Assembly (NCBI GenBank): GCA_964616645.1
Contig: CAZTUM010000018.1
Location: 1-14,607 of the forward strand
DNA length: 14,607 bases
Direction of reading: 5' to 3'
Source of the DNA: an uncultured Muribaculaceae bacterium
GTDB taxonomy: Bacteria; Bacillota_I; Bacilli_A; RF39; UBA660
Position numbers and translations under genes: made by a program. The notes under the pieces were generated by a model. It saw only the letters and a list, made by a program, of their open reading frames with translations. It ran no database searches and was not told the origin of the DNA. Shown here one piece after another: positions 2 through 14,236 of the stretch; the stretch's first letter is position 1; each line of letters opens with the position of its first letter.

Positions 2-775
2 TTAAAGACAGAATATTGCTATGAGAGTAAAGATTTTAATGAAGTAAAAGGAAGATTAAAATATTTAAAAGAAATAAAAGGGATAGGATTATTTATAGGT
101 AGTAGTGGATTAGGGAAAACATATTCAATAAGATGTTTTACAGAAAGTTTAAATAAAGATTTATATAAAGTAATATATATATCACCAACAAAGAAGATGC
201 GAGTATTTGAGTTTTTTGCACAAATAGCAAGGAACTTAAATATAGATACAGGAGCTTGTTATAAAAATGAAATGTATGAGAGAATACAAACAGAAATAAA
301 AAGATTAGTAAATGAAAAGAGAATACAACCAATATTTATAATAGATGATGCAGACAATTTAAATGAACATATATTAATGGAATTAAAATTATTATTTGAC
401 TTTCAGATGGATAGTAAAGATTATACAACAATAATACTAGTAGGACATGAAGAGTTAAGAAAAGAATTATCAAAATTAAAATATGAAACATTACAACAAA
501 GAATAGTAGTAAATTATAGATTTAATGGATTATCAAGAGAAGAAGTGAAAGCATATGTAATAAGTAGATTAGAACTAGCAAATCAGAAAAATAAAATATT
601 TCAAGAAGCAGCATTAACAGCACTATATTCAGCAAGTAAAGGAAGTCCAAGAAGATTAAATAATTTAATAATAAATGCATTAATGATAGGATATCAAAAT
701 AATAAAAGTGAGATAGATGAGGAAATAGTGATGTTAGCTAAGAATGAAATTGACTTTATGGAAGGAGAATGGTAA
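2..775 (+). CDS. ExeA/TniB-like AAA+ ATPase (transposition-helper type), 5'-partial; the frame is open to the window edge
   Basis: The frame of ORF 197..775 stays open back to nt 2 (LKTEYCYESKDFNEVKGRLKYLKEIKGIGLFIGSSGLGKT...). Walker A GSSGLGKT is at 98-121 and Walker B is IFIIDDAD. The C-terminal GSPRRLNNL motif is typical of ExeA-family ATPases that accompany DDE (Mu/Tn552/Tn7-like) transposases. Confidence 0.8.
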   Translation, partial: LKTEYCYESKDFNEVKGRLKYLKEIKGIGLFIGSSGLGKTYSIRCFTESLNKDLYKVIYISPTKKMRVFEFFAQIARNLNIDTGACYKNEMYERIQTEIKRLVNEKRIQPIFIIDDADNLNEHILMELKLLFDFQMDSKDYTTIILVGHEELRKELSKLKYETLQQRIVVNYRFNGLSREEVKAYVISRLELANQKNKIFQEAALTALYSASKGSPRRLNNLIINALMIGYQNNKSEIDEEIVMLAKNEIDFMEGEW

Positions 776-990
776 GAAAAAATAAAAGAAAAATGATAAA
801 TAAGTATGAAATAATATATAAAATGAATGCAATAATAGATTATTTAAAAAATAATAATGGATATAATTATAAAACGTATAATATGTTATGTCCAGGTATG
901 GGTGAACCGGATTCAAATATTATTGAATATGCTAAAGATGTTTTAAATATAATTAATGAATTAATTAATAAAAATCAAGAGATTAAATAA
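769..990 (+). CDS. Small hypothetical protein (73 aa), translationally coupled to the ATPase
   Basis: Its ATG overlaps the ATPase stop (ATGGTAA). The ORF is open in AT-rich DNA where stop codons are frequent. I recognise no motif. Confidence 0.4.
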   Translation: MVRKNKRKMINKYEIIYKMNAIIDYLKNNNGYNYKTYNMLCPGMGEPDSNIIEYAKDVLNIINELINKNQEIK

Positions 991-1113: not shown

Positions 1114-1620
1114 TTGAAGGTAATTTATGTTGAGATAATTTGTAAAAAAAAATCCCAAATAATTCGCAATTATAAAGTCCCAAATAATTCGCAAATCAAC
1201 AATAAGGAGGATAAATTATATGAAAAAACAAACCAACGTTCGTGGGGGGGGGGTACTTTAATAATTAGACAGTCCAGTGGGATTTTCTATGAAGTTAATG
1301 ATAATGATGCAATAATTTTAAATTATTTATTTAATTATAAGATTACTGGTTCTAATAGAGTAGGGTTTCCTAATACTGCATTATCTAAAGTATTAAATAC
1401 TTTAGAAAAAGATAATATAGATTATATTTTATATTATATAAATGGAACAAAAGATGAATACCATAAAGTACCTAATAATTATAATAAAGTATTAACACTT
1501 GCACTTAGTAATTATGATTTTAATAATAAAATAAAAGATATTACTTCTAAAATAAATAAATTAGATAATATTAAATTAAATAATTTATTAAAAATAATCG
1601 AGGATTATTTAAATGAATAA
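1114..1620 (+). CDS. DGR accessory ORF with MutS domain-I-like (mismatch-binding-domain-like) sequence; the native start is probably ATG 1220, which is out of frame as assembled
   Basis: LIIRQSSGIFYEVNDNDAIILNYLFNYKIT...RVGFPNTALSKVLNTLEKDNIDYIL resembles the MutS N-terminus ([17 protein letters not shown]...L.ITLT...PMAGVP..A...YI..L...GYKV). The as-assembled ORF needs TTG 1114, which has no RBS. The strong GGAGG (1206-1210) plus ATG 1220 is in the +1 frame and stops at 1259-1261 after the G10 tract. The stop overlaps the avd start. Confidence 0.5.
   Translation: MKVIYVEIICKKKSQIIRNYKVPNNSQINNKEDKLYEKTNQRSWGGGTLIIRQSSGIFYEVNDNDAIILNYLFNYKITGSNRVGFPNTALSKVLNTLEKDNIDYILYYINGTKDEYHKVPNNYNKVLTLALSNYDFNNKIKDITSKINKLDNIKLNNLLKIIEDYLNE
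1153..1194 (+). repeat. Two perfect 17-bp direct repeats, TCCCAAATAATTCGCAA (1153-1169 and 1178-1194), separated by 8 nt
   Basis: The exact duplication is read directly. It sits between the candidate promoter and the GGAGG RBS of the first DGR gene. I saw no further copies on either strand. Confidence 0.9.
1244..1253 (+). repeat. G10 homopolymer (simple-sequence contingency tract) inside the 5' end of the first DGR accessory gene
   Basis: Ten consecutive G counted at 1244-1253 in otherwise very AT-rich DNA. G11 or G8 would fuse ATG 1220 to the long downstream frame. Confidence 0.95.
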
Positions 1621-1957
1621 TGATTTTAAATTGATTATTTTAGTTAAAAATTATATATTATCTTTAGAGGATTTACTTATTAATGTACCTAATAAAGATT
1701 ATTATAATAAAAATACAATGAGAAGTTATTTAGATGATATTTTATTTTTAATTTATTTAATTAATAATCATAAGGATAAGAATGTTAAGATTAATTTAAA
1801 ATATGTTCTTTTATCTAAGGTTAATATGCTTAATTTTTATATTGAAAGATATCATAAGTTAAAATATATATCTAAAAAACAAGTATTTCAAAATGCTACT
1901 AAGATTGAAGAAATTACTAAAGTTATATATGGATGGATAAAGAGTAATGATAAATAA
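1613..1957 (+). CDS. avd: Avd-like accessory variability determinant (small four-helix-bundle protein)
   Basis: 114 aa, basic and helical, located immediately upstream of the RT and overlapping it. The C-terminal ...KYISKKQVFQNATKIEEITKVIYGWIKS matches the Avd pattern (..is..qy..l...i.eigkml.GW.k). GAGGA RBS lies 8 nt upstream. Confidence 0.75.
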   Translation: MNNDFKLIILVKNYILSLEDLLINVPNKDYYNKNTMRSYLDDILFLIYLINNHKDKNVKINLKYVLLSKVNMLNFYIERYHKLKYISKKQVFQNATKIEEITKVIYGWIKSNDK

Positions 1958-3032
1958 AATAGATTATTTTAAAATATTGGATACTTATGATAAGACTGTA
2001 AGTAAAAGAGTTAGAAATAAAAGAAGTTTAATTAATATGGAAATGAATAAAATTAGCTATGTTAGTAATATTTATAATTTATTAATTAATAATAATTATA
2101 AATTTTATAAATATAATATTTTTATAATAAAAGAACATAAATATAGAATTGTTATGTCATCTAATATCTATGATAAAGTAATTAATCATTATTATACAAA
2201 TGAATTTTTATATAAAAAGGTAGAACCTTATTTAGATAAAAGAAATATTGCTACTAGAATAGGTATGGGTACTGACTATGGTATTAAATTAATAAAAAAA
2301 TATTATGAAATATATAAAAAGTATGATACTTTTTATATATTAAAATTAGATATAAAGAAGTATTTTTATAGTATAGACCATAATGTATTAAAGAGTATGT
2401 TAAAAGATATATTAGATAAATATGAGTATTATATAATATGTAATATTATTGATAGTACTAATTATGATTATATTAATAATGAGATTAAGAAATTAAAGAT
2501 TAAATATAATAATCCTTATGTTAATGATATTCCATATTATTTACATGATAAAGGTCTAGCTATAGGACTTATGACTAATCAAACTTTAGCAATATTTTAT
2601 TTATATAAATTACATAATTTTATTAATAGAAAACTAAAATTAAAACATTTTATTTCTTATATGGATGATATAATTATATTTCATAAAGATAAAGATTATT
2701 TAAAGTATTCTTTAAAAGAAATAGAAAAATATTTAAATAATGTTTTAAAATTAGAGTTAAATAAAAATAAAACTATGATATGTAAATCAAGTAATTGGGT
2801 AGAGTTTTTAGGATATAATTTTAAAGTAGTTAATAAGAAAACTATTATTAGAATTAGAAGTAAGTCATTAAAAAGAATAAAGAAGAATATTAAGAATACT
2901 AAATATTTATATGATATTAATAAGATATCTTTAGAGAAAGCTTTTTCTATTATTAATAATTATAAATATAGTTATAAATATGATAAAAGTATGAAAGTTA
3001 ATAATTTAATAGATAAATATTGGAGGTGTTAA
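1947..3032 (+). CDS. DGR-type reverse transcriptase
   Basis: 361 aa. Motifs present: KYRIVMSSNIYDKVINH (KxRxI....DRVVQH-like), LDIKKYFYSIDH, GLAIGLMTNQTLAIFYL (compare Bordetella bRT GLPIGNLTSQHFANFYL; nt 2562-2582) and the catalytic YMDD (2658-2669). There is no maturase or endonuclease extension. A cognate TR starts 26 nt after the stop. Confidence 0.93.
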   Translation: MINKIDYFKILDTYDKTVSKRVRNKRSLINMEMNKISYVSNIYNLLINNNYKFYKYNIFIIKEHKYRIVMSSNIYDKVINHYYTNEFLYKKVEPYLDKRNIATRIGMGTDYGIKLIKKYYEIYKKYDTFYILKLDIKKYFYSIDHNVLKSMLKDILDKYEYYIICNIIDSTNYDYINNEIKKLKIKYNNPYVNDIPYYLHDKGLAIGLMTNQTLAIFYLYKLHNFINRKLKLKHFISYMDDIIIFHKDKDYLKYSLKEIEKYLNNVLKLELNKNKTMICKSSNWVEFLGYNFKVVNKKTIIRIRSKSLKRIKKNIKNTKYLYDINKISLEKAFSIINNYKYSYKYDKSMKVNNLIDKYWRC

Positions 3033-3057
3033 ATATAAAAGGGTAATATGAATTAAA

Positions 3058-3149
3058 TTACTCCTAATTCTAGTAATTCTAACAACGTCTTCAACGTGAA
3101 CAACAATGCGAATGTGAACAGCAACAACGCGAACAATGGCAACGGCGTT
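3058..3149 (+). repeat. DGR template repeat (TR); the 5' boundary could be 3055
   Basis: The 92-nt segment aligns without gaps (offset 1565) to 4623-4714. All 59 non-A positions are identical, and 16 of the 33 A positions differ in the VR. It is much more GC-rich than its surroundings and lies in intergenic DNA just 3' of the RT. Confidence 0.95.
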
Positions 3150-3309
3150 TCCTAGTACTTTATTTACTTGGTAATTTTAAAGGTCTATCCTTTAAAATCT
3201 ATAGGAATAAAGGACAAGTATTATCCTTGATACTAAGTATCTAAATTTAAATTATGGATGGATATTTCTTAGTTATTTATCCTAGAACCATAATATATTT
3301 AATTTTATT
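3150..3309 (+). ncRNA. Noncoding segment 3' of TR; candidate DGR RNA spacer or priming region
   Basis: A 160-nt ORF-free stretch follows TR directly. I can draw only short helices, for example AAGGA 3210-3214 with TCCTT 3224-3228, and GATAC-TAA-GTATC at 3229-3241. The assignment is by analogy to the spacer needed for cDNA priming in the Bordetella phage DGR. Confidence 0.25.
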
Positions 3310-3651
3310 ATGAGTGTATATAATAGATATAAATTTATAAAAGATATATATAGTAATTATATAATATTTATAAAGAAAAAGAATAAATATTATACTTATG
3401 ATATAGATAATAAAATGCTTAGAAGTTTAAAAGTAAATTATTATAAAGATATTGATAAGTATAAAATAAATTATTTACTTATTAATAATTTAGAAATTAT
3501 TAATAAGGTTGAATATAAAAATAATAATTATAATAAATATTTAATTAATTATTTAATAAATGAAATTTATAATAGATATAAAGAAAGAGAAGATGGTTAT
3601 AATGAAGAAATTATTAAAAATATTAGTTCCTATAGTAATAATATGTATTAG
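3310..3651 (+). CDS. Hypothetical 113-aa protein between TR and the target gene; possibly a second MutS-domain-I-like accessory
   Basis: An open frame of 113 codons is unlikely by chance at this AT content. RYKFIKDIYSNYIIFIKKKNKYYTYDIDNKMLRSL loosely parallels MutS [36 protein letters not shown]. There is no obvious SD, the sequence is low-complexity, and it overlaps the target gene 5' end by about 50 nt. Confidence 0.4.
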   Translation: MSVYNRYKFIKDIYSNYIIFIKKKNKYYTYDIDNKMLRSLKVNYYKDIDKYKINYLLINNLEIINKVEYKNNNYNKYLINYLINEIYNRYKEREDGYNEEIIKNISSYSNNMY

Positions 3652-4798
3652 TATATTTATTATTAATAAAAATAATAATAAATATACTAGTATTTCAGGT
3701 TACCCTAATACTAAGATTATGGTATCTTATAATGGAGTTGCTAGGAGTGATTTTCCTAGTAAGGATACTTCTTTATATTATAATGTTACTACTAATTGTA
3801 ATAATGCTTCTTCTCATTGGGATTATGATAATTGGGAATTAGTAATTAGTAATTTAACTAGTACTAGTAAATGTAATGTAGATTTTACTACTAGTAGTAA
3901 AACTACCTTATATAACTATATAGTAAATACATTATATAATAATACGGATGGAAATAATGATATATATAAAGAAGACCATACAATAAATAATAATAGTTAT
4001 TCAGAATATAGATATGAAGGAGAAGATACAAAAGTAAATAATTATGTATGGTTTAATAATGAATTATGGAGAATAATCGGGGCATTTCCAGGAGGAACAC
4101 CCACTACTAGTAGTACTAGTCTAGGAGATGGAGCACCTAGTACAAATAATACAGTAAAAATAATAAGAAATGATTCATTAGGAAGTTATGCTTGGAGTAA
4201 AAGTAATACCAATGAATGGACTACAGCCTCATTGAATAGAGAAATATTAAATAATTTATATTTAAATTCATCTTCAGGAACATGTAATTTTTATTCAACT
4301 TCAGTATCAAAAGCATGTGACTTTACAAGTAATGGACTAAGTAATGTAGAAGACTTTATAGAAAATGCAACATGGAATTTAGGAGGGTATAGTAGTAGTT
4401 CAGTGACAGCAAGTAGTATGTATGAATATGAAAGAGGCACCACAGTATATTCAGGAAGAAGTATATATGCAACAGTGAAAGTAGGACTAATGTATCCATC
4501 AGACTATGGATATTCAGTAACTAACACAAACTGTAATCACAGTAGTACAAATCTATCTAGTTATAACTCTTCATCATGTGGAGGAAAGAGTTGGATGTTA
4601 AAGTATGGATTTGAATGGACTCTTACTCCTTATTCTAGTTATTCTTACTACGTCTTCGACGTGAACAACTTTGCGAGTGTGTACAGCGTCATCGCGAGCT
4701 TTGGCGACGGCGTTCGACCAGTCGTATATCTAAAATCTAATGTCTATGTAACAGGGGGAGATGGAAGTATTGATAATCCATATCAAGTATCACTTTAA
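3602..4798 (+). CDS. DGR target (variable) protein: N-terminal membrane anchor, Asn/Ser/Thr-rich ectodomain, C-terminal VR-bearing lectin-like domain
   Basis: The ORF is open from ATG 3560. ATG 3602 (alternative 3593) gives MKKLLKILVPIVIICISIFII, a signal-anchor. The C-terminus EWTLTPYSSYSYYVFDVNNFASVYSVIASFGDGVRPVVYLK contains the VR in frame and ends with the G.RPV motif seen in DUF1566/CLec-like DGR variable domains. Confidence 0.88.
   Translation: MKKLLKILVPIVIICISIFIINKNNNKYTSISGYPNTKIMVSYNGVARSDFPSKDTSLYYNVTTNCNNASSHWDYDNWELVISNLTSTSKCNVDFTTSSKTTLYNYIVNTLYNNTDGNNDIYKEDHTINNNSYSEYRYEGEDTKVNNYVWFNNELWRIIGAFPGGTPTTSSTSLGDGAPSTNNTVKIIRNDSLGSYAWSKSNTNEWTTASLNREILNNLYLNSSSGTCNFYSTSVSKACDFTSNGLSNVEDFIENATWNLGGYSSSSVTASSMYEYERGTTVYSGRSIYATVKVGLMYPSDYGYSVTNTNCNHSSTNLSSYNSSSCGGKSWMLKYGFEWTLTPYSSYSYYVFDVNNFASVYSVIASFGDGVRPVVYLKSNVYVTGGDGSIDNPYQVSL
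4623..4714 (+). repeat. DGR variable repeat (VR) within the 3' end of the target gene
   Basis: It is the counterpart of TR 3058-3149. The 16 differences (11 A->T, 5 A->G) are all at TR adenines. Homology ends at 4714/4715, right after the GC-rich GGCGACGGCGTT. Confidence 0.95.
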
Positions 4799-4805
4799 GT
4801 AGCTA

Positions 4806-4847
4806 TATACGGTTAATGTGGAAGGATATCTTCCCATTAGCCGTATA
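4806..4847 (+). terminator. Strong stem-loop after the target gene (probable terminator or insulator before the rpsP promoter)
   Basis: TATACGGTTAAT (4806-4817) pairs with ATTAGCCGTATA (4836-4847): 12 bp including one G-U. An inner GGAAG (4820-4824) pairs with CTTCC (4830-4834). The downstream tract is A/T-rich but is not a clean U-run. Confidence 0.5.
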
Positions 4848-4873
4848 ATTAAATATATGTTAACCAAATATGG

Positions 4874-4902
4874 TTGACATCTTTTATTTAATATGATAAT
4901 AT
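4874..4902 (+). promoter_or_regulatory. Promoter of the rpsP operon
   Basis: TTGACA (4874-4879), a 17-nt spacer, then TGaTAATAT (extended -10; TAATAT at 4897-4902). Confidence 0.6.
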
Positions 4903-7471: not shown

Positions 7472-8019
7472 TGTATGAATATATAAGTGGTAAGGTTACT
7501 TTAGTTAAGAGTAATTATATAGTTCTTGATAATAATAATATTGGTTATGCTATATATGTTGCTAATCCATATTCATATCATATTGATAATGAATATAAAG
7601 TATATATATATACTCAAATAAAAGAAGATGAACATCTGTTATATGGTTTTAGTAAAGAAGAAGAAAAAGAATTATTTTTAAGTCTTATAAACGTAAAGGG
7701 TTTAGGCCCTAAGTTAGCTATGGTTATATTGTCTCATGGTGATATTTCTTATGTAAAAGAAGCAATAGAGAAAGAAGATATATCTTATTTAAAGAAATTT
7801 CCTAAAGTTGGAGATAAAGTAGCTAGACAGATTATACTTGATTTAAAAGGGAAATTAGCAAAAGGGGATACTAGGTATGATGAACAACAAGAGTTGATTT
7901 CTGTTTTAGAGAATTTAGGCTATAAAACTGTAGACATTAAGAGGGTACTTCCTAATATAAGTAAGAATATAACAATAGAACAACAAATAAAAGAAGCTCT
8001 TAAGTTAATGATAAAATAA
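7471..8019 (+). CDS. ruvA: Holliday junction branch-migration complex subunit RuvA
   Basis: MYEYISGKV...NNIGYAIYV...LLYGF...EKELFLSLINVKGLGPKLAMVIL, followed by HhH motifs and a C-terminal domain III-like tail. Confidence 0.9.
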   Translation: MYEYISGKVTLVKSNYIVLDNNNIGYAIYVANPYSYHIDNEYKVYIYTQIKEDEHLLYGFSKEEEKELFLSLINVKGLGPKLAMVILSHGDISYVKEAIEKEDISYLKKFPKVGDKVARQIILDLKGKLAKGDTRYDEQQELISVLENLGYKTVDIKRVLPNISKNITIEQQIKEALKLMIK

Positions 8020-9887: not shown

Positions 9888-11444
9888 ATGAAGAAGTTTT
9901 TAAGAAATTATGATTTTGAAGATTATTTTGATTCACTTATACTATCTCGTGGAAAAAGTTACTATAAAGAAAATAGAATATTAGATATTTGGTGTCAAAA
10001 TGATTTAATAACTGCTTATATTGATGGCTCTGAAATATATAGAATTGAAATAAGAGCAAATGATAAAGAATTGAATAATTTTTATTGCTCTTGCCCATAT
10101 TCAGAAGGTGGTGAATATATGTGTAAACATATTGCTGCTGTTCTTTATTATTTAGAAGAAAATGATATTCCAGAATTAGAAATTTCAAATAGAAAGCAAG
10201 TAAAAAAAGAAAAAGACAAATCCGAGCTTTCTAAAATATATGATGAAATGAATTATGAACTAAGAAAAATAAGTGATAGAAATGGTTTTGTTAATTATTA
10301 TAATGGAAGATACTTTGTAGATTTAATTTCTAATGTATCTGATTACATAGATGATTTTATAGATAATGAAGAATATAACAATGCTTTTGAACTAATCAAA
10401 TATACATATAGATTTATAAAGGATACTTTTATTGACGGATCTAATGGTGAATTTCAAGATTCATTATATTTAATTAATGAAAGTGCAAGTAAACTTTTAT
10501 ATAATGATGAATATTTTGATATCTTCTTAGATTATACTGAAGATATAACATCAAATAATACCCTAGATGATTTTTCTGATTCACCATTACATGCATTTAT
10601 CCTTTATGTTCATGATAAAGATTCAGCTAAAAAAGTTGTTAAAATACTAGATGAAATTGAGTTGAACACTTATGGAATATTTGTTAGTCAAACTTTAGAT
10701 AAAATATCATTAACTTATGATTTCATTGATAAAGATGATGCTATAAAAATGTGCTATGAAAGTATTGAACATTATGGAGTAAAAGAATTATTAATTAAGT
10801 ATTTAAAAAATGATAATAAAATAGACGAAGTAATACGAATATTAAAAAATGATATTAAAAATCATGTAAGAAAAGATATGGCTTATAACAAATTACTAGA
10901 TATTTATGATGAATATGGTAAATTAGAAGAAAAGAAAAAGATACTGCCGGAAGTTATAATAGAAACAAATAGTTTTGCAAGATATAAGGAACTAAAAGAT
11001 ATGTATAGTGATTCTGAATGGGAGTCTATAAAAGAAAAAATAATATCTAAAATAAAATCAAATAATATTTATATGCTTGAAGAAATTTATGCTGAAGAAA
11101 ATGAAATTGATAAATTATTTGAACTATTAAAGAAAAATCCTAATATATCCGACTTGGCAAAATATCAAGATAAATTAAAGGATAAATATAGTAAGGAACT
11201 ATTAAATTTTTACAAAAATCAAATAATTGAGTTATCAAAAAGAGTATCGGATAGAAATTCTTATTATGGATTATGTCGTTATATTGGAATAATGAAAGAA
11301 CTTGCTGATTCTGATGATTTTATCTTTGATATGTTAAAGGAAATGTATCCTAATTATAAGAGTAGAAGAGCATTTAAAGAAGAAATAATGAATGTTTTAA
11401 ATTCTAAAAATAAACAAAGATTTCATGAGTTTATAAATAACTAG
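9888..11444 (+). CDS. SWIM zinc-finger domain protein with a long helical-repeat C-terminal region
   Basis: CSCPYSEGGEYMCKHIAAVLYYL is a CxCx(n)CxH SWIM motif, preceded by the usual beta-rich N-terminus (RGKSYYKENRI...). AGGAG RBS. Confidence 0.8.
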   Translation: MKKFLRNYDFEDYFDSLILSRGKSYYKENRILDIWCQNDLITAYIDGSEIYRIEIRANDKELNNFYCSCPYSEGGEYMCKHIAAVLYYLEENDIPELEISNRKQVKKEKDKSELSKIYDEMNYELRKISDRNGFVNYYNGRYFVDLISNVSDYIDDFIDNEEYNNAFELIKYTYRFIKDTFIDGSNGEFQDSLYLINESASKLLYNDEYFDIFLDYTEDITSNNTLDDFSDSPLHAFILYVHDKDSAKKVVKILDEIELNTYGIFVSQTLDKISLTYDFIDKDDAIKMCYESIEHYGVKELLIKYLKNDNKIDEVIRILKNDIKNHVRKDMAYNKLLDIYDEYGKLEEKKKILPEVIIETNSFARYKELKDMYSDSEWESIKEKIISKIKSNNIYMLEEIYAEENEIDKLFELLKKNPNISDLAKYQDKLKDKYSKELLNFYKNQIIELSKRVSDRNSYYGLCRYIGIMKELADSDDFIFDMLKEMYPNYKSRRAFKEEIMNVLNSKNKQRFHEFINN

Positions 11445-11459
11445 AAAGATGGTGATAGA

Positions 11460-12437
11460 TTGAAAAACAATATGATTATATATGTATCAAAAGATGGTAA
11501 TATAAAAGTTGATGTTAATATTCAAAATGAAGATATATGGATGAGTCAAGATGTAATGGCTAATCTTTATGATACTACTAAAAATAATATTTCTATGCAC
11601 TTAAAAAATATCTTTGATGAAGGTGAACTCCAAAAAGATTCAGTTGTTAAGAAATTCTTAACAACTGCAAATGATGGTAAGAAATATAATGTTTTACATT
11701 ATAATTTAGATGCAATTATTGCTGTTGGATATAGAATTAATTCTAAAAAAGCAACTGAATTTAGAATATGGTCAACTAAAGTTTTAAAAGAATATATGAT
11801 TAAAGGATTTGCTTTAAATGATGAAAGATTAAAGAATAATGGAGAAAGTCCATATTTTGAAGAGTTGCTTGCTAGAATTCGTGATATTAGGTCTTCTGAA
11901 AAAATATTTTGGAGAAAAGTGTTGGATATTTATGCAACTTCAATTGATTATGATCCAAAAAATAGATTATCAATTGATTTCTTTAAAACAGTACAAAATA
12001 AAATGCATTATGCTACTCATGGACATACTGCAGCTGAAATCATATTTACTAGAGTAGATTCTGAAAAAGATCATTTAGGACTTACTAATTTTAAAGGTAA
12101 TTATCCAACAAAGAGTGAAACTGAAATTGCTAAAAATTATTTAACTGAAGAAGAACTTAATACCTTAAATAGAATTGTATCTGCCTATTTAGATGTTGCT
12201 GAAATTAATGCTTTAGATAGGCATCCAATGACTATGCAAGATTGGGTGAATGAATTAGATTCATTTCTAAAAATGACTAGGAAGGATATATTAAATGGCT
12301 CAGGTACGATATCACACAAAGAAGCATTAGAAAAAGCACATAAAGAATATGATAAATATATGCAAAAACATTTAACTACTGCTGAACAAGATTATTTGGA
12401 AATGTTAAATAAAGAAGTTGAAGAAATTGATAAATAA
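11460..12437 (+). CDS. RhuM-family protein
   Basis: ...WMSQDVMANLYDTTKNNISMHLKNIFDEGEL....VVKKFLTTANDGKKYNVLHYNLDAIIAVGYRINSKKATEFRIWSTKVLKEYMIKGF..NDERLK is the characteristic RhuM N-terminal half. The start is TTG 11460 (GGTGA upstream); ATG 11472 is the alternative. Confidence 0.8.
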   Translation: MKNNMIIYVSKDGNIKVDVNIQNEDIWMSQDVMANLYDTTKNNISMHLKNIFDEGELQKDSVVKKFLTTANDGKKYNVLHYNLDAIIAVGYRINSKKATEFRIWSTKVLKEYMIKGFALNDERLKNNGESPYFEELLARIRDIRSSEKIFWRKVLDIYATSIDYDPKNRLSIDFFKTVQNKMHYATHGHTAAEIIFTRVDSEKDHLGLTNFKGNYPTKSETEIAKNYLTEEELNTLNRIVSAYLDVAEINALDRHPMTMQDWVNELDSFLKMTRKDILNGSGTISHKEALEKAHKEYDKYMQKHLTTAEQDYLEMLNKEVEEIDK

Positions 12438-12533
12438 TTGATTATGATTTACCAGGATAAACGCATGAGATTACAATTACTAAATTCTCAATAAAATAAG
12501 GGGTTAAATATTTAATGTTAAAGATTATATGAA

Positions 12534-12598
12534 GAGCCGTATGCGAGAAATTCGCACGTACGGTTCTGTGAGGGGCGACAGACTTCCTCTCACTAGAT
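12534..12598 (+). mobile_element. Group II intron domain V plus domain VI-like hairpin (orphan 3' fragment; no intron ORF or 5' domains nearby)
   Basis: GAGCCGTATGCGAGAAATTCGCACGTACGGTTC (12534-12566) matches the domain V consensus: the AGC triad, GAGCCGUAU pairing with GUACGGUUC, an AC bulge and a GAAA-type loop. Next comes an 8-bp helix, GTGAGGGG (12568-12575) with CCTCTCAC (12586-12593), then ...AGAT (AY end near 12598). Confidence 0.65.
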
Positions 12599-12858
12599 AA
12601 GAAAGGGAGGTGTAGTCGAGTTGTCTACTCGACAGAACTATGAAAGAAAACAAAGATTTAAATACAGATTTTCAAAATAATTTGGATTATGTATTAATCA
12701 ATTTAGAAAAAGATATATTTAAAGCAAATAGTTAGAAGATAAGTTGTATTTGGAAATGTCTAAAGATGATAAACCAATAATAAAAGCAACTACACCAAAT
12801 AGTAGTAAATATGATACAAAAATAGATGCGTATATTTAAGCTCCTAAAGTCCTACATG

Positions 12859-12907
12859 AATCATCCTATAAATTTTAATAAAAAGTTTGAATTTAGGATG
12901 ATTTTTT
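12859..12907 (+). terminator. Probable intrinsic terminator
   Basis: AATCATCCTA (12859-12868) pairs with TAGGATGATT (12894-12903). The A/T-rich interior is partly paired, and a T-run follows (to 12907). Confidence 0.55.
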
Positions 12908-12957
12908 GTTAAATTATTGAAATAACAATTTAAATGCAAAAAACATCAAAAAAACGC

Positions 12958-12985
12958 ATATATTTGCTCATTTGAGCAAATATAT
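12958..12985. promoter_or_regulatory. 28-bp near-perfect palindrome (candidate operator) abutting or overlapping the -35 box
   Basis: ATATATTTGCTCA tt TGAGCAAATATAT: 13-nt arms at 12958-12970 and 12973-12985. Its last T is the first T of the TTGACA -35 hexamer. Confidence 0.6.
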
Positions 12986-13013
12986 TGACAAAAATAGCAA
13001 AATAATATATAAT
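12985..13013 (+). promoter_or_regulatory. Consensus sigma-70-type promoter for the DUF4143 ATPase gene
   Basis: TTGACA (12985-12990), exactly 17 nt, then TATAAT (13008-13013). GGTGA RBS and ATG 13031 follow. Confidence 0.7.
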
Positions 13014-13030
13014 GTTAATGGTGATTAAAA

Positions 13031-14236
13031 ATGAATATAATATATCGTGAAGAATATATAAATAAATTAATATCTTTAAAAGATAAAAAAATAATAAAAG
13101 TTTTAACTGGTATAAGACGGGCAGGTAAGTCTACAATATTACAAGATTTTAAAGAATATCTTTTAAAAAATGGTGTAGATGAAAAAAATATAATATTTAT
13201 AAATCTGGATGATAAAAATTATAGACATTTACTTGACTCAGATATATTACATGATTATATATTATCTAACGTAGATTTAGATAAAAAAAATTATATATTT
13301 TTAGATGAAATACAAAATGTCAAAGAATTTGAAAAGTGTATAAATAGTTTATTTTTAAGAGAAAATTTGGATATATATATAACTGGTTCTAATTCATATA
13401 TGTTATCTGGAGAACTTGCTACTTATTTAACTGGTAGATATATTCAAATACACGTTTTACCATTATCATTTAAAGAATACTTAAGTTATTATGGAGAAAG
13501 TGATGAATTAAAAAAATATAATGATTATGTAACCTATGGTGGATTTCCATATTTAATAAATCTTGATAATAATAAAGATAAAATGGAATATTTAGATAGT
13601 ATTTATAATACTGTAATTATGAAAGATGTTATAAATAGAAAAAAAGTTAATGACCCCATGATGTTAGAAAGTATATGTAGGTTTATATTTGATAGTATAG
13701 GCTCTAGCATATCAACAAAAAAGATAAGTGATACTTTAGCATCAAATGGAAGAAAGAATTCTGTTCATACAGTTGAAGAATACTTAAATGCACTTTTAGA
13801 AAGTTATATATTATATAAGGTTAATAGATTTGATATAAAGGGTAGAGAATTATTAAAAACTCAAGAAAAATATTATTTATCTGATGTAGGATTAAGAACT
13901 TATTTACTTGGTAATTCATCTGGTAAAGATTTAGGACATATATTTGAAAATATAATATTTTTAGAATTAAAAAGAAGAGGGTATAAAATATATATTGGTA
14001 AGGATAACGAAAATGAAGTAGATTTTGTGTGTCAAACTGAAGATGATACAATATATATACAAGTATCTTTAACCGTAAGAGATGAAAATACATTAAAAAG
14101 AGAGTTAAAATCTTTAGAAGCAATACAAGACCATTATAAAAAATATATAATAACTCTTGATTATGATACAAATAATTATAATGGAATAAAACAAATAAGT
14201 GCTATGGATTTTTTACTTGGTAAAATCGAAATATAA
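13031..14236 (+). CDS. AAA-family ATPase with a DUF4143-type C-terminal domain (COG1373-like)
   Basis: Walker A GIRRAGKST and Walker B YIFLDEIQ. The LSFKEYL motif and the C-terminal ...EVDFV... nuclease-like/DUF4143 region are typical of this family. Confidence 0.85.
   Translation: MNIIYREEYINKLISLKDKKIIKVLTGIRRAGKSTILQDFKEYLLKNGVDEKNIIFINLDDKNYRHLLDSDILHDYILSNVDLDKKNYIFLDEIQNVKEFEKCINSLFLRENLDIYITGSNSYMLSGELATYLTGRYIQIHVLPLSFKEYLSYYGESDELKKYNDYVTYGGFPYLINLDNNKDKMEYLDSIYNTVIMKDVINRKKVNDPMMLESICRFIFDSIGSSISTKKISDTLASNGRKNSVHTVEEYLNALLESYILYKVNRFDIKGRELLKTQEKYYLSDVGLRTYLLGNSSGKDLGHIFENIIFLELKRRGYKIYIGKDNENEVDFVCQTEDDTIYIQVSLTVRDENTLKRELKSLEAIQDHYKKYIITLDYDTNNYNGIKQISAMDFLLGKIEI

What the first reader, a model, noticed from the sequence alone, without database searches (positions are those of the whole stretch)
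3058..4714. Template/variable repeat pair with strictly adenine-specific differences: a DGR hallmark
TR 3058-3149 and VR 4623-4714 align gap-free. All 59 non-adenine positions are identical. Of the 33 TR adenines, 16 are substituted in the VR (11 A->T, 5 A->G), at TR positions 3066, 3075, 3081, 3084, 3093, 3105, 3106, 3112, 3117, 3123, 3124, 3127, 3133, 3135, 3136 and 3141. The TR is intergenic and sits 26 nt after a DGR-type RT. The VR is in frame at the C-terminus of a surface-anchored protein. TR-encoded TPNSSNSNNVFNVNNNANVNSNNANNGNGV appears in the VR as TPYSSYSYYVFDVNNFASVYSVIASFGDGV. This is direct evidence of mutagenic retrohoming in this lineage.
Basis: seen in the sequence. Interest (0 to 1): 0.9.

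Follow-up and report, generated by a model that had tools for sequence, protein, structure and literature searches.

The report
Diversity-generating retroelement in a gut bacterium
This is a real, complete and apparently recently active diversity-generating retroelement that rewrites the tip of a membrane-anchored surface protein in an uncultured, very AT-rich gut bacterium; it is a clean new example of a well-known system, not a new kind of system.

Summary
TR 3058-3149 and VR 4623-4714 align without gaps, and all 16 differences fall on TR adenines (P = 3.7e-9).

It is a chromosomal DGR. The gene order is a MutS-domain-I-like accessory gene (MSL, 1114-1620), avd (1613-1957), RT (1947-3032), TR, a structured spacer RNA (3159-3294), a conserved small ORF (3310-3651) and the target (3602-4798).

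- **RT:** its closest solved relative is Bordetella bRT.
- **Population evidence:** in five strains of a sister species the TR is nearly invariant, while both VRs vary at 26-27 of 29 TR-adenine positions and at 7 of 62 other positions.
- **RNA:** across 19 related loci the TR is bracketed by a covarying 10-bp long-range helix. A short stem-loop and an A-rich tract follow. This is the layout described for the Bordetella DGR RNA.
- **Target:** the variable domain folds like DUF6273, a known C-type-lectin-like DGR target domain.

This is a new member of a known kind (the MSL-containing architecture D of Wu et al.). Minor new points are an IGxxxNQ variant of the RT motif and a lineage-wide extra small ORF of unknown function. 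Activity in this genome's own population is untested.

The parts
1114..1620 (+). MSL accessory gene. It encodes a small MutS-domain-I-like protein. The ORF is 168 aa from a TTG start; the true start may lie further downstream.
   Evidence: It is conserved immediately upstream of avd in 18 related loci. Nine of the 10 sequences aligned (the window's plus nine homologs) hit Pfam MutS_I, best E 1.1e-6; the window copy alone gives no Pfam hit at E 0.01. A profile search of the PDB gives the MSH6 mismatch-binding domain as best hit, E 0.01. It corresponds to the 'MSL' gene of Wu et al. 2018.
1613..1957 (+). avd-like accessory gene (114 aa).
   Evidence: The window protein hits Pfam bAvd at 1.2e-4, NCBIfam DivGenRetAVD at 1.2e-5 and PHROG 'Avd protein of DGR' at 1.6e-6. 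The two curated hits are below their cut-offs. All 10 family members hit bAvd, best E 2.5e-9. The gene overlaps the RT start.
1947..3032 (+). DGR reverse transcriptase (361 aa) with a YMDD active site and the motif IGLMTNQ.
   Evidence: It hits RVT_1 at 2.3e-11 and phrog_1423 at 2.7e-55. The best PDB hit is 8ub7, a 328-aa chain deposited as 'Reverse transcriptase' that I identify as Bordetella bRT, at 4.8e-13. IGLMTNQ aligns to bRT IGSLTSQ, and R74 is kept. In related loci the motif ends in SQ in 11 loci and in NQ in 10, counting the window.
3040..3049 (+). 5' strand (AGGGUAAUAU) of the long-range helix that brackets the TR. It is the candidate 'cPRT Stop' duplex.
   Evidence: RNAalifold predicts it independently. 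98.9% of cells are paired over 19 loci, and 4 of 10 pairs show compensatory changes. The window MFE structure contains it.
3058..3149 (+). Template repeat (TR). It is non-coding, with 33 adenines and 15 AAY codons in the VR frame.
3159..3211 (+). Spacer hairpin H2, in two tiers. The inner 10-bp stem is 3174-3183 with 3189-3198.
   Evidence: Each distinct sequence from the related loci folds the same way despite different sequences. The outer stem covaries.
3218..3227 (+). 3' strand (GUAUUAUCCU) of the long-range helix.
3229..3254 (+). Short stem-loop GAUAC-UAA-GUAUC (3229-3241) followed by the A-rich tract UAAAUUUAAAUUA.
   Evidence: All 5 pairs show compensatory changes across the loci. Every locus folds a 4-6 bp stem at this place, followed by UAAA.
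3251..3294 (+). Spacer hairpin H4. The outer 7-bp stem is 3251-3257 with 3288-3294. The inner stem is 3260-3264 with 3278-3282.
   Evidence: The outer stem has 5 of 6 pairs with compensatory changes. Most relatives have an inner 9-bp stem capped by a tetraloop, whereas the window has only 5 bp.
3310..3651 (+). Conserved small ORF (113 aa here, 85-102 aa elsewhere) between the TR RNA and the target. Its function is unknown.
   Evidence: An intact ORF sits at the same place in 17 of 18 loci (alignment A5). Links to MutS_I/MSL are weak: hhalign probability 18.9%, and Pfam MutS_I in 3 of 12 members at E 0.028 or worse.
3602..4798 (+). Target gene (398 aa). It encodes an N-terminal hydrophobic anchor, a beta-sandwich domain and a DUF6273-like variable domain.
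   Evidence: P0001 is the annotated product. The AF2 model has pLDDT 77.7 and pTM 0.75. Foldseek matches the T. ramosa IgA peptidase 9qa6, whose N-terminal domain is DUF6273, at E 5.8e-6. It also matches phage DUF6273 proteins at probability 1.0.
4623..4714 (+). Variable repeat (VR).
   Evidence: Across 120 homologs the positions matching AAY codons have a mean entropy of 3.02 bits, against 0.89 at other VR positions and 0.65 elsewhere in the protein.
4806..4880 (+). Strong hairpin after the target stop codon (4806-4847), then a terminator-like hairpin with a T-run (4857-4880).
   Evidence: This is the probable end of the transcription unit. It is not a BPP-1-type hairpin adjacent to the VR.

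Best explanation
A chromosomal, cell-encoded diversity-generating retroelement that was active recently.

Proposed mechanism:
1. A transcript runs through the RT gene into the TR and the roughly 150-nt spacer.
2. The RNA folds so that AGGGUAAUAU (3040-3049) pairs with GUAUUAUCCU (3218-3227). This closes the TR and hairpin H2 into a loop. A short stem-loop, an A-rich tract and a further hairpin follow.
3. The RT, together with the Avd-like protein, binds this scaffold.
4. The RT self-primes near the 3' end of the TR (about 3149) and copies the TR towards its 5' end. It inserts random nucleotides opposite adenines and stops just before the long-range helix. TR/VR homology ends at 3058, 9 nt from the helix.
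5. The mutagenized cDNA replaces the VR (4623-4714).

The result recodes 15 AAY codons and 3 other A-containing codons in the DUF6273 (C-type-lectin-like) ligand-binding domain of a membrane-anchored surface protein. That allows about 2.8e19 possible proteins and never creates a stop codon. The MutS-domain-I-like MSL protein, and possibly the small ORF at 3310, are lineage-specific helpers. I infer that they act on the mismatched cDNA:target intermediate.

Shown here: the repeat pair, the gene content, RNA covariation, the fold, and adenine-restricted VR variation among strains of a sister species.

Inferred: transcription, priming site, stop site, the roles of the accessory proteins, surface exposure, and activity in this genome's own population.
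For: - **Repeat pair:** the mismatches are exclusively at adenines, P = 3.7e-9. None of the 59 non-A positions differs, so too little time has passed since the last homing event for drift to show.
- **RT:** it is nearest to Bordetella bRT among solved structures and keeps the R74, I181 and Q187 equivalents and YMDD.
- **Accessory genes:** Avd-like and MSL genes are in the cassette. All cassette ORFs are intact.
- **Conserved cassette:** target1-MSL-avd-RT-TR-smallORF-target2 recurs in related gut MAG loci. About a dozen of them have adenine-specific TR/VR pairs.
- **Strain comparison:** among five strains of the sister species, variation along the cassette peaks only at the two VRs. It occupies 27/29 and 26/29 TR-A positions against 7/62 non-A positions (p = 1.8e-14 and 2.8e-13).
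- **RNA scaffold:** 92.9% of cells are paired against 41-46% in slid controls. 18 of 28 pairs have compensatory changes. No shuffle of 500 reaches the observed covariation. The layout matches the upstream:Sp duplex, stem-loop and adenosines described for the Bordetella DGR RNA.
- **Target fold:** DUF6273, a documented C-lectin-like DGR target domain whose VR lies at its C-terminal end.
- **Genomic context:** housekeeping genes flank the cassette here (rpsP, ddl, ruvA) and in the sister species (priA, rluD-like, mscS).
Against: - There are no reads or population data for this genome, so current activity is unproven.
- The window protein alone scores below the curated cut-offs for Avd.
- The RT motif is IGxxxNQ, not the canonical IGxxxSQ.
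- The inner stem of hairpin H4, a 9-bp stem with a tetraloop in most relatives, is only 5 bp here.
- The A-free identical stretch at the 3' end of the VR is short (8 nt), and there is no hairpin directly after the VR as in phage BPP-1.
- The window lacks the upstream second target that relatives carry.
- No A>C changes occur among the 16 substitutions (one search gives P about 0.01 from the relatives' spectrum; about 0.02 by my own recalculation after dropping three misregistered VR1 rows). This may be chance or selection.
Confidence: 0.85

Rival explanations
1. A DGR that worked in the past but is now frozen in this genome. The TR/VR pattern would record old activity, and the cassette would be decaying.
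For: The upstream target found in relatives is missing. In its place are a Mu-B/ExeA-like AAA ATPase gene and a small ORF. The H4 inner stem is weakened. The RT has the NQ motif variant. There are no population data.
Against: Not one of the 59 non-A positions differs between TR and VR, so little time has passed since the last homing event. All five cassette ORFs are intact. The long-range helix, H2 and H3 are intact. RTs with the NQ motif in the sister species accompany VRs that differ between strains.
Confidence: 0.1
2. A phage- or mobile-element-borne DGR that diversifies a receptor-binding protein, rather than a cellular surface protein.
For: The DUF6273 fold is typical of gut-phage DGR targets and receptor-binding proteins. 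Neighbouring genes have a mobile flavour: a Mu-B-like ATPase, RhuM/Bro-N and a group II intron fragment. The cassette sits at a different chromosomal site than in the sister species.
Against: There are no phage structural, lysis or integration genes in the 14.6 kb. rpsP, a KH-domain gene, ddl and ruvA lie directly downstream. The target has an N-terminal membrane anchor, and paralogs occur in tandem chromosomal arrays. The location is syntenic in five strains of the sister species. A scan of IMG/VR with the RT found no relative.
Confidence: 0.04
3. An ordinary duplicated gene fragment that diverged by drift or gene conversion, next to an unrelated group-II-intron-like RT.
For: NCBIfam's best named hit for the RT is the group II intron RT/maturase, at 67 bits, far below its 300-bit cut-off. 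A group II intron domain V/VI lies elsewhere in the window.
Against: Adenine-only mismatches have P = 3.7e-9. The RT is closest to bRT. There is no intron RNA around the RT. The same architecture and the same mismatch rule recur in about a dozen independent loci.
Confidence: 0.01

Closest known systems
Bordetella phage BPP-1 DGR (mtd-avd-TR-brt), the prototype
   Same: Both show adenine-specific TR-to-VR transfer. Both use an RT of the same clade (best PDB match 8ub7) with an Avd partner. In both, the TR is embedded in an RNA in which sequence upstream of the TR pairs with the spacer, followed by a short stem-loop and adenosines. In both, the VR lies at the C-terminal end of a C-type-lectin-like ligand-binding domain.
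   Different: - Gene order here is avd-RT-TR, so the spacer lies 3' of the whole operon instead of between TR and RT.
- This element is cellular, not phage-borne.
- It has extra MSL and small-ORF genes.
- The RT motif ends in NQ instead of SQ.
- The 3' A-free identity is very short, and there is no hairpin next to the VR.
- The target domain is DUF6273, not Mtd.
MSL-containing DGRs ('Architecture D' of Wu et al. 2018, NAR 46:11), which include the Legionella pneumophila DGR
   Same: Both have a small MutS-domain-I-like accessory gene together with avd and no HRDC gene. Both are chromosomal elements. As I recall from the Legionella literature, that element also diversifies a membrane-anchored surface protein; I did not check this here.
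   Different: - The host is a very AT-rich uncultured gut member of the Bacilli rather than a proteobacterium.
- Relatives carry two flanking targets.
- There is an additional conserved small ORF between TR and target.
- The target's variable domain is DUF6273.
DGRs of Faecalibacterium prophages and other gut phages with DUF6273 targets (PMC11792537, PMC10743442)
   Same: The target's variable domain has the same fold family, with the VR at the C-terminal end of DUF6273. The habitat is also the gut.
   Different: Those elements are phage-borne and diversify tail or receptor-binding proteins. This one is chromosomal, and its target has an N-terminal membrane anchor and belongs to a large family of cellular paralogs.

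Membership tests
Diversity-generating retroelement (DGR) | A TR/VR repeat pair whose differences are confined to TR adenines. | tested here: met
   All 16 mismatches are at adenines, and 0 of 59 non-A positions differ. P = 3.7e-9.
Diversity-generating retroelement (DGR) | A reverse transcriptase of the DGR clade adjacent to the TR. | tested here: met
   It has an RVT_1 domain and YMDD. It hits phrog_1423 at 2.7e-55. The best solved relative is Bordetella bRT (8ub7, 4.8e-13), with the R74 and I181 equivalents kept. No phylogenetic tree was built.
Diversity-generating retroelement (DGR) | The hallmark RT motif [I/L/V]GxxxSQ. That this motif is a hallmark rests on my own knowledge of the DGR literature. 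| tested here: inconclusive
   The window has IGLMTNQ, so I and Q are kept and S is replaced by N. In related loci, 11 have SQ and 10 have NQ, counting the window. Loci with NQ still show adenine-specific VR variation. I read this as a tolerated variant, not a failure.
Diversity-generating retroelement (DGR) | The VR lies at the 3' end of a protein-coding target, and the TR is non-coding. | tested here: met
   The VR is in frame and ends 28 codons before the stop of ORF 3602-4798. The TR frame is bounded by stops and has no start codon.
Diversity-generating retroelement (DGR) | TR adenines are concentrated in AAY codons, so mutagenesis cannot create stop codons. | tested here: met
   There are 10 AAC and 5 AAT codons, and all adenines lie at codon positions 1 and 2.
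Diversity-generating retroelement (DGR) | An Avd accessory protein (present in about 74% of DGRs). | tested here: met
   The window protein hits three independent Avd models, below the curated cut-offs. All 10 family members hit Pfam bAvd, best E 2.5e-9. The gene sits directly upstream of the RT and overlaps it.
Diversity-generating retroelement (DGR) | The DGR RNA scaffold: sequences upstream and downstream of the TR pair with each other, followed by a stem-loop, adenosines and a further stem-loop (Handa et al., bioRxiv 10.1101/2023.10.23.563531). | tested here: met
   There is a 10-bp helix, 3040-3049 with 3218-3227. 92.9% of cells are paired against 41-46% in slid controls, and 18 of 28 pairs have compensatory changes. 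I could not pin down the template:primer duplex or the priming adenosine.
Diversity-generating retroelement (DGR) | IMH/IMH* elements and a hairpin at the 3' end of the VR, as in BPP-1. | tested here: inconclusive
   Only 8 A-free identical nt (CGGCGTT plus the preceding base) end the repeat. The flanks then diverge, and in the sister species they remain partly similar. No convincing hairpin lies directly after the VR; the first strong one is 92 nt downstream.
Diversity-generating retroelement (DGR) | The VR is displayed on a C-type-lectin-like (or Ig-like) binding fold. | tested here: met
   The AF2 model has pLDDT 77.7. It matches DUF6273 domains in the PDB (9qa6, E 5.8e-6) and in BFVD (probability 1.0). 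A distant homolog passes Pfam's DUF6273 cut-off. The C-lectin nature of DUF6273 is taken from PMC10743442, not tested directly here.
Diversity-generating retroelement (DGR) | VR diversity within or between populations that maps onto TR adenines while the TR stays constant. | tested here: met
   This is met in five strains of the sister species and at protein level over 120 homologs. It cannot be tested for this genome's own population.
Diversity-generating retroelement (DGR) | Demonstrated cDNA synthesis and mutagenic retrohoming. | not testable with these tools
   This needs RNA or cDNA assays, or read-level data.
MSL accessory protein (Wu et al. 2018) | A small protein (112-283 aa) homologous to MutS domain I. 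It sits in a DGR cassette that also has avd and has no HRDC gene. | tested here: met
   The ORF is 168 aa. Nine of the 10 sequences aligned (the window's plus nine homologs) hit Pfam MutS_I, best E 1.1e-6, and the profile's best PDB hit is the MSH6 mismatch-binding domain. The window copy alone gives no Pfam hit at E 0.01. avd is adjacent, and no HRDC hit was found.

The most novel reading that the evidence does not exclude
The small ORF at 3310-3651 is present at the same place in 17 of 18 related cassettes and has no database annotation. It could be a previously undescribed DGR accessory protein, possibly a second, degenerate derivative of MutS domain I. Together with MSL it would form a lineage-specific module that recognises the adenine-mutagenized cDNA:target heteroduplex and shields it from repair. 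In that reading, mismatch handling would be an encoded step of retrohoming in this DGR lineage, which also uses an IGxxxNQ RT.
Probability: 0.2. Interest if true: 0.55.

Novelty: new member of a known kind. Interest (0 to 1): 0.35.

Why it matters
**Annotation.** The finding assigns a function to a block of unannotated genes in an uncultured, genome-reduced, very AT-rich gut lineage. That lineage invests in hypervariable surface proteins. The target family has thousands of members, often several per genome. This suggests rapidly changing ligand recognition, whether of host, phage or partner cell.

**Mechanism.** The 19 related loci give natural covariation support, in a lineage distant from Bordetella, for the RNA architecture proposed from the Bordetella cryo-EM structure (upstream:spacer duplex, stem-loop, adenosines). 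The cassette is compact, under 4 kb. With MSL and one extra conserved ORF, it offers a tractable system for asking what MutS-like accessory proteins do in retrohoming, which is still unknown.

**Limits.** None of this changes the picture of what DGRs are.

Tried and rejected
- **Viral contigs:** a scan of IMG/VR with the RT found no relatives. The single-protein patterns give limited sensitivity.
- **Avd against the PDB:** a single-sequence search found nothing. A profile search gave only weak hits. Avd identity therefore rests on the Pfam, NCBIfam and PHROG models.
- **First AF2 model of the target:** built with 120 close homologs, it was unusable (pLDDT 41.7). Adding a 34-38%-identical subfamily fixed it.
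- **Target against PDB sequences:** a profile search found nothing.
- **Small ORF 3310 against MSL, MutS_I and the PDB:** only faint signals appeared, so I do not call it a MutS relative.
- **Template:primer duplex:** by eye on the alignment, UCCU 3150-3153 with AGGA 3211-3214 is possible. It has apparent covariation in L004 and L043 but fails in L006, L008 and L049. I left it unresolved.
- **Hairpin next to the VR:** I looked for a BPP-1-type hairpin and found none convincing.
- **Promoter scan:** the number of hits is no better than chance in this AT-rich DNA.
- **TR-pattern scan of JGI metagenomes:** it gave 4 loci. Only L070 is related, and it is another strain of the sister species.
- **Source names:** an exact look-up of the window's proteins returned no name for the organism.
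- **Absence of A>C changes:** I considered reading something into it, but P is only about 0.01-0.02, so I do not.
Full report
**Observation**

The window is 14,607 nt at 24% G+C. It appears to be a whole contig of an NCBI metagenome-assembled genome.

Positions 3058-3149 and 4623-4714 are a 92-nt gap-free direct repeat. It is by far the longest in the window. There are 16 mismatches. All 59 non-A positions are identical, and identity ends abruptly on both sides.

Given 33 adenines in 92 positions, the chance that all 16 mismatches fall on adenines is 3.7e-9. A pattern made from the TR with every A replaced by N matches only these two sites, and matches none of 200 shuffles.

In the reading frame of the downstream copy, the upstream copy reads as 10 AAC and 5 AAT codons. 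Its adenines lie only at codon positions 1 and 2, so no stop codon can be generated.

**Anatomy of the locus**

All genes lie on the + strand.

- **1114-1620:** a 168-aa ORF with no direct database hit.
- **1613-1957:** a 114-aa protein that hits three independent Avd models (Pfam bAvd 1.2e-4, NCBIfam DivGenRetAVD 1.2e-5, PHROG 'Avd protein of DGR' 1.6e-6). The two curated hits (Pfam and NCBIfam) are below their cut-offs.
- **1947-3032:** a 361-aa reverse transcriptase (RVT_1 2.3e-11; phrog_1423 2.7e-55).
- **3058-3149:** the TR, starting 26 nt after the RT stop.
- **3150-3300:** a G+C-enriched spacer.
- **3310-3651:** a 113-aa ORF with no hit.
- **3602-4798:** the target gene (398 aa as annotated, P0001). 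The VR ends 28 codons before its stop.

Directly downstream are rpsP, a KH-domain gene, a hydrolase gene, ddl and ruvA. Upstream is an AAA ATPase gene resembling Mu B or ExeA. It runs off the 5' end of the contig and includes its Walker A motif.

**The reverse transcriptase**

The best solved relative is PDB 8ub7, a 328-aa chain deposited as 'Reverse transcriptase' (4.8e-13). I identify it as Bordetella bRT from the aligned sequence and residue numbering; the related preprint was found. Three group II intron RTs follow far behind.

The alignment places the window's IGLMTNQ on bRT's IGSLTSQ. I181 and Q187 are kept, and S186 is replaced by N. The arginine aligned with bRT R74 is kept, and the active site is YMDD. 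From my own knowledge of the bRT literature, R74 and I181 are the residues implicated in adenine mutagenesis.

In related loci the motif ends in SQ in 11 loci and in NQ in 10, counting the window. The loci with NQ still show adenine-restricted TR/VR differences. I therefore treat NQ as a tolerated variant.

**Accessory genes**

*Avd.* All 10 members of the Avd-like family hit Pfam bAvd, best E 2.5e-9.

*MSL.* The ORF at 1114-1620 is conserved immediately upstream of avd in 18 related loci. Nine of the 10 sequences aligned (the window's plus nine homologs) hit Pfam MutS_I, best E 1.1e-6; the window copy alone gives no Pfam hit at E 0.01. The family profile's best PDB match is the mismatch-binding domain of MSH6, with the GxFYE...DA...GFP pattern aligned. 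This is the 'MSL' accessory gene of Wu et al. 2018, which defines their Architecture D. It always occurs with avd and never with HRDC, and the Legionella DGR has one.

*The small ORF.* The ORF at 3310-3651 has an intact counterpart at the same place in 17 of 18 loci. An open frame of 85-113 codons is very unlikely by chance in DNA this AT-rich, so I treat it as a gene. It has no annotation. Its resemblance to MSL or MutS_I is faint: hhalign probability 18.9%, Pfam MutS_I in 3 of 12 members at E 0.028 or worse, and no PDB hit. I leave its function unknown.

**Related loci and population evidence**

The target belongs to a very large family: 5,617 and 7,894 hits in two searches, each capped at 8,000 candidates. 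A scan of one genome per species returned 64 loci. Almost all come from gut MAGs labelled uncultured Bacilli, Tenericutes, Clostridium sp. CAG:609, Candidatus Onthocola or Candidatus Ventrenecus. Many genomes hold several paralogs, often in tandem.

The recurrent cassette is target1(VR1)-MSL-avd-RT-TR-smallORF-target2(VR2). About a dozen of the fetched loci have TR/VR pairs whose mismatches are entirely or mostly at adenines, with all three substitution types. The window lacks target1.

- Along the 5.4-kb cassette, strain-to-strain variation peaks only at the two VRs.
- The TR is nearly invariant.
- VR1 varies at 27 of 29 TR-adenine positions and at 7 of 62 non-A positions. VR2 varies at 26 of 29 and 7 of 62. 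Fisher p = 1.8e-14 and 2.8e-13.

At protein level over 120 homologs, mean entropy is 3.02 bits at the 15 AAY positions. It is 0.89 bits at the other VR positions and 0.65 bits in the rest of the protein.

This is strong evidence that this DGR lineage is active. It is not evidence about the window's own population.

**The TR is embedded in a conserved structured RNA**

I aligned the TR and its flanks from 19 loci.

- **Long-range helix.** RNAalifold, without guidance, predicts a 10-bp helix between the sequence just upstream of the TR (window 3040-3049, AGGGUAAUAU) and the spacer (3218-3227, GUAUUAUCCU). It shows compensatory changes, for example GGGUAAU/AUUAUCC becoming GGGUAGU/ACUAUCC.
- **Short stem-loop.** It follows immediately (3229-3241). 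All five of its pairs covary. A UAAA-type A-rich tract comes next.
- **Two-tier hairpins.** One lies before the helix's 3' strand (3159-3211) and one after the A-rich tract (3251-3294). They fold in every distinct sequence despite different sequences.

On the four reliably aligned helices, 92.9% of cells are paired, against 41-46% when partners are slid. 18 of 28 pairs have compensatory changes. The covariation score is 0.569, against 0.138 or less in slid controls, and no shuffle of 500 reaches it. The window's own MFE structure reproduces all the elements.

This layout is what Handa et al. (bioRxiv 10.1101/2023.10.23.563531) describe for the Bordetella DGR RNA. There, a duplex between sequence upstream of the TR and the spacer, followed by a short stem-loop and adenosines that make A-minor contacts, forms the 'cPRT Stop'. 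A stem-loop of about 9 bp capped by a tetraloop binds Avd. They predict these elements in 207 of 278 Avd-containing DGRs.

Three details fit or qualify the parallel.

- TR/VR homology starts 9 nt after the helix. This fits termination just before the duplex.
- The 9-bp/tetraloop stem is clear in most relatives (H4 inner stem) but is only 5 bp in the window.
- I could not fix the template:primer duplex or the priming nucleotide. A UCCU:AGGA pairing at the TR 3' boundary is possible but is not supported in all loci.

**The target protein**

It has a hydrophobic N-terminus (residues about 5-22) with no conserved cysteine. This suggests a membrane anchor or signal peptide rather than a lipoprotein. 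That is inference.

An AF2 model built on 116 sequences from two subfamilies reaches pLDDT 77.7 and pTM 0.75. It shows an N-terminal beta-sandwich and a C-terminal globular domain of about 260 residues, with the VR forming beta-hairpins.

Foldseek finds one significant PDB match, the Thomasclavelia ramosa IgA peptidase 9qa6 (E 5.8e-6). Its N-terminal domain is annotated DUF6273. In BFVD it finds many gut-phage DUF6273 proteins at probability 1.0. A distant family member passes Pfam's DUF6273 cut-off.

DUF6273 is documented as a C-type-lectin-like DGR target domain with the VR at its C-terminal end.

**Mechanism proposed**

1. A transcript through the RT gene into the TR and spacer folds into the scaffold above.
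2. The RT and Avd bind the scaffold.
3. The RT self-primes near 3149 and copies the TR with random insertion opposite adenines.
4. It stops before the 3040-3049 helix.
5. The cDNA replaces 4623-4714.

This recodes 15 AAY codons and 3 other codons, giving about 2.8e19 possible proteins. MSL, and perhaps the small ORF, would act on the mismatched intermediate.

The sequence-level facts are shown. The steps themselves are inferred by homology with the Bordetella system.

The complete lack of non-A differences between TR and VR argues that the last homing event was recent.

**Rivals**

- **Frozen relic (0.10).** The lost upstream target and the weakened H4 stem favour it. The intact ORFs and the zero non-A drift argue against it.
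- **Phage- or element-borne DGR (0.04).** The phage-typical target fold and the mobile-looking neighbours favour it. The housekeeping flanks, the membrane anchor, the synteny across strains and the empty IMG/VR scan argue against it.
- **Chance or an ordinary duplication (0.01).** This is excluded statistically and by recurrence in other loci.

**Novelty and verdict**

This is a textbook-quality DGR of the MSL-containing architecture, in a host group for which the held literature shows no dedicated description. Searches found no dedicated paper. Large surveys probably include such elements, but I could not check this.

It is a new member of a known kind. The modest new points are the NQ motif variant, the lineage-wide small ORF, the two-target layout in relatives, and natural covariation support for the DGR RNA scaffold.

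Interest is 0.35.

Noticed in passing
window 12532-12633 (+): A group II intron domain V/VI matches Rfam RF00029 at 60.5 bits, above the 40-bit gathering score. It lies between the RhuM-family gene and an AAA_14/DUF4143 ATPase gene. No intron-encoded RT or maturase ORF is nearby, and no clear upstream intron domains were found. It is probably an intron remnant or an ORF-less intron.
   Followed up: partly
window 2-775 (+) and 769-990 (+): The AAA ATPase gene upstream of the cassette hits Pfam AAA_22, PHROG 296 'DNA transposition protein', and the ExeA-like TIGR03015 model below its cut-off. It is open from nt 2 in frame 2, includes the Walker A motif GSSGLGKT, and so runs off the contig end. 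With the small ORF after it, it occupies the place where relatives carry the upstream DGR target. It may be part of a transposon that displaced that target.
   Followed up: partly
window 1114-4798 compared with L065, L066, L071, L072, L073: In five strains of the sister species the cassette lies between priA/rluD-like genes and an mscS-like gene. In the window it lies next to rpsP. Either the cassette or its surroundings have moved.
   Followed up: partly
L004 5459-5803 and 8836-9180: The two target genes that flank this DGR share a 345-nt identical stretch: the whole 91-nt VR plus 124 nt upstream and 130 nt downstream. This points to gene conversion between paralogs, one cDNA or recombination event copied to both, or a collapsed repeat in the assembly.
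   Followed up: partly
L001-L064 (for example L019, L039, L013, L055): Target-family paralogs occur in tandem arrays of up to four per locus, and many have no RT within 8 kb. The VR-equivalent segment is also the variable part in the 34-38%-identical subfamily (consensus). Trans-acting diversification of remote targets is therefore possible but was not examined.
   Followed up: no
window 4623-4714: None of the 16 adenine substitutions is A>C, although A>C makes up about a fifth to a quarter of substitutions in related TR/VR pairs. P is about 0.01-0.02. The VR is rich in Tyr (6) and Phe (2). This may be chance, selection or a polymerase bias.
   Followed up: partly
window 9888-14236 (+): A run of genes often linked to mobile or defence contexts follows the housekeeping block: a SWIM zinc-finger protein (518 aa), a RhuM-family protein with weak Bro-N similarity, and an AAA_14/DUF4143 ATPase.
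   Followed up: no
L060 7281-8726; L035 7956-9278: Distant paralogs of the target begin with a hydrophobic segment followed by a YAFF/FAIF-type motif. This resembles SipW-dependent signal peptides, as I recall them. The window protein lacks the motif.
   Followed up: no
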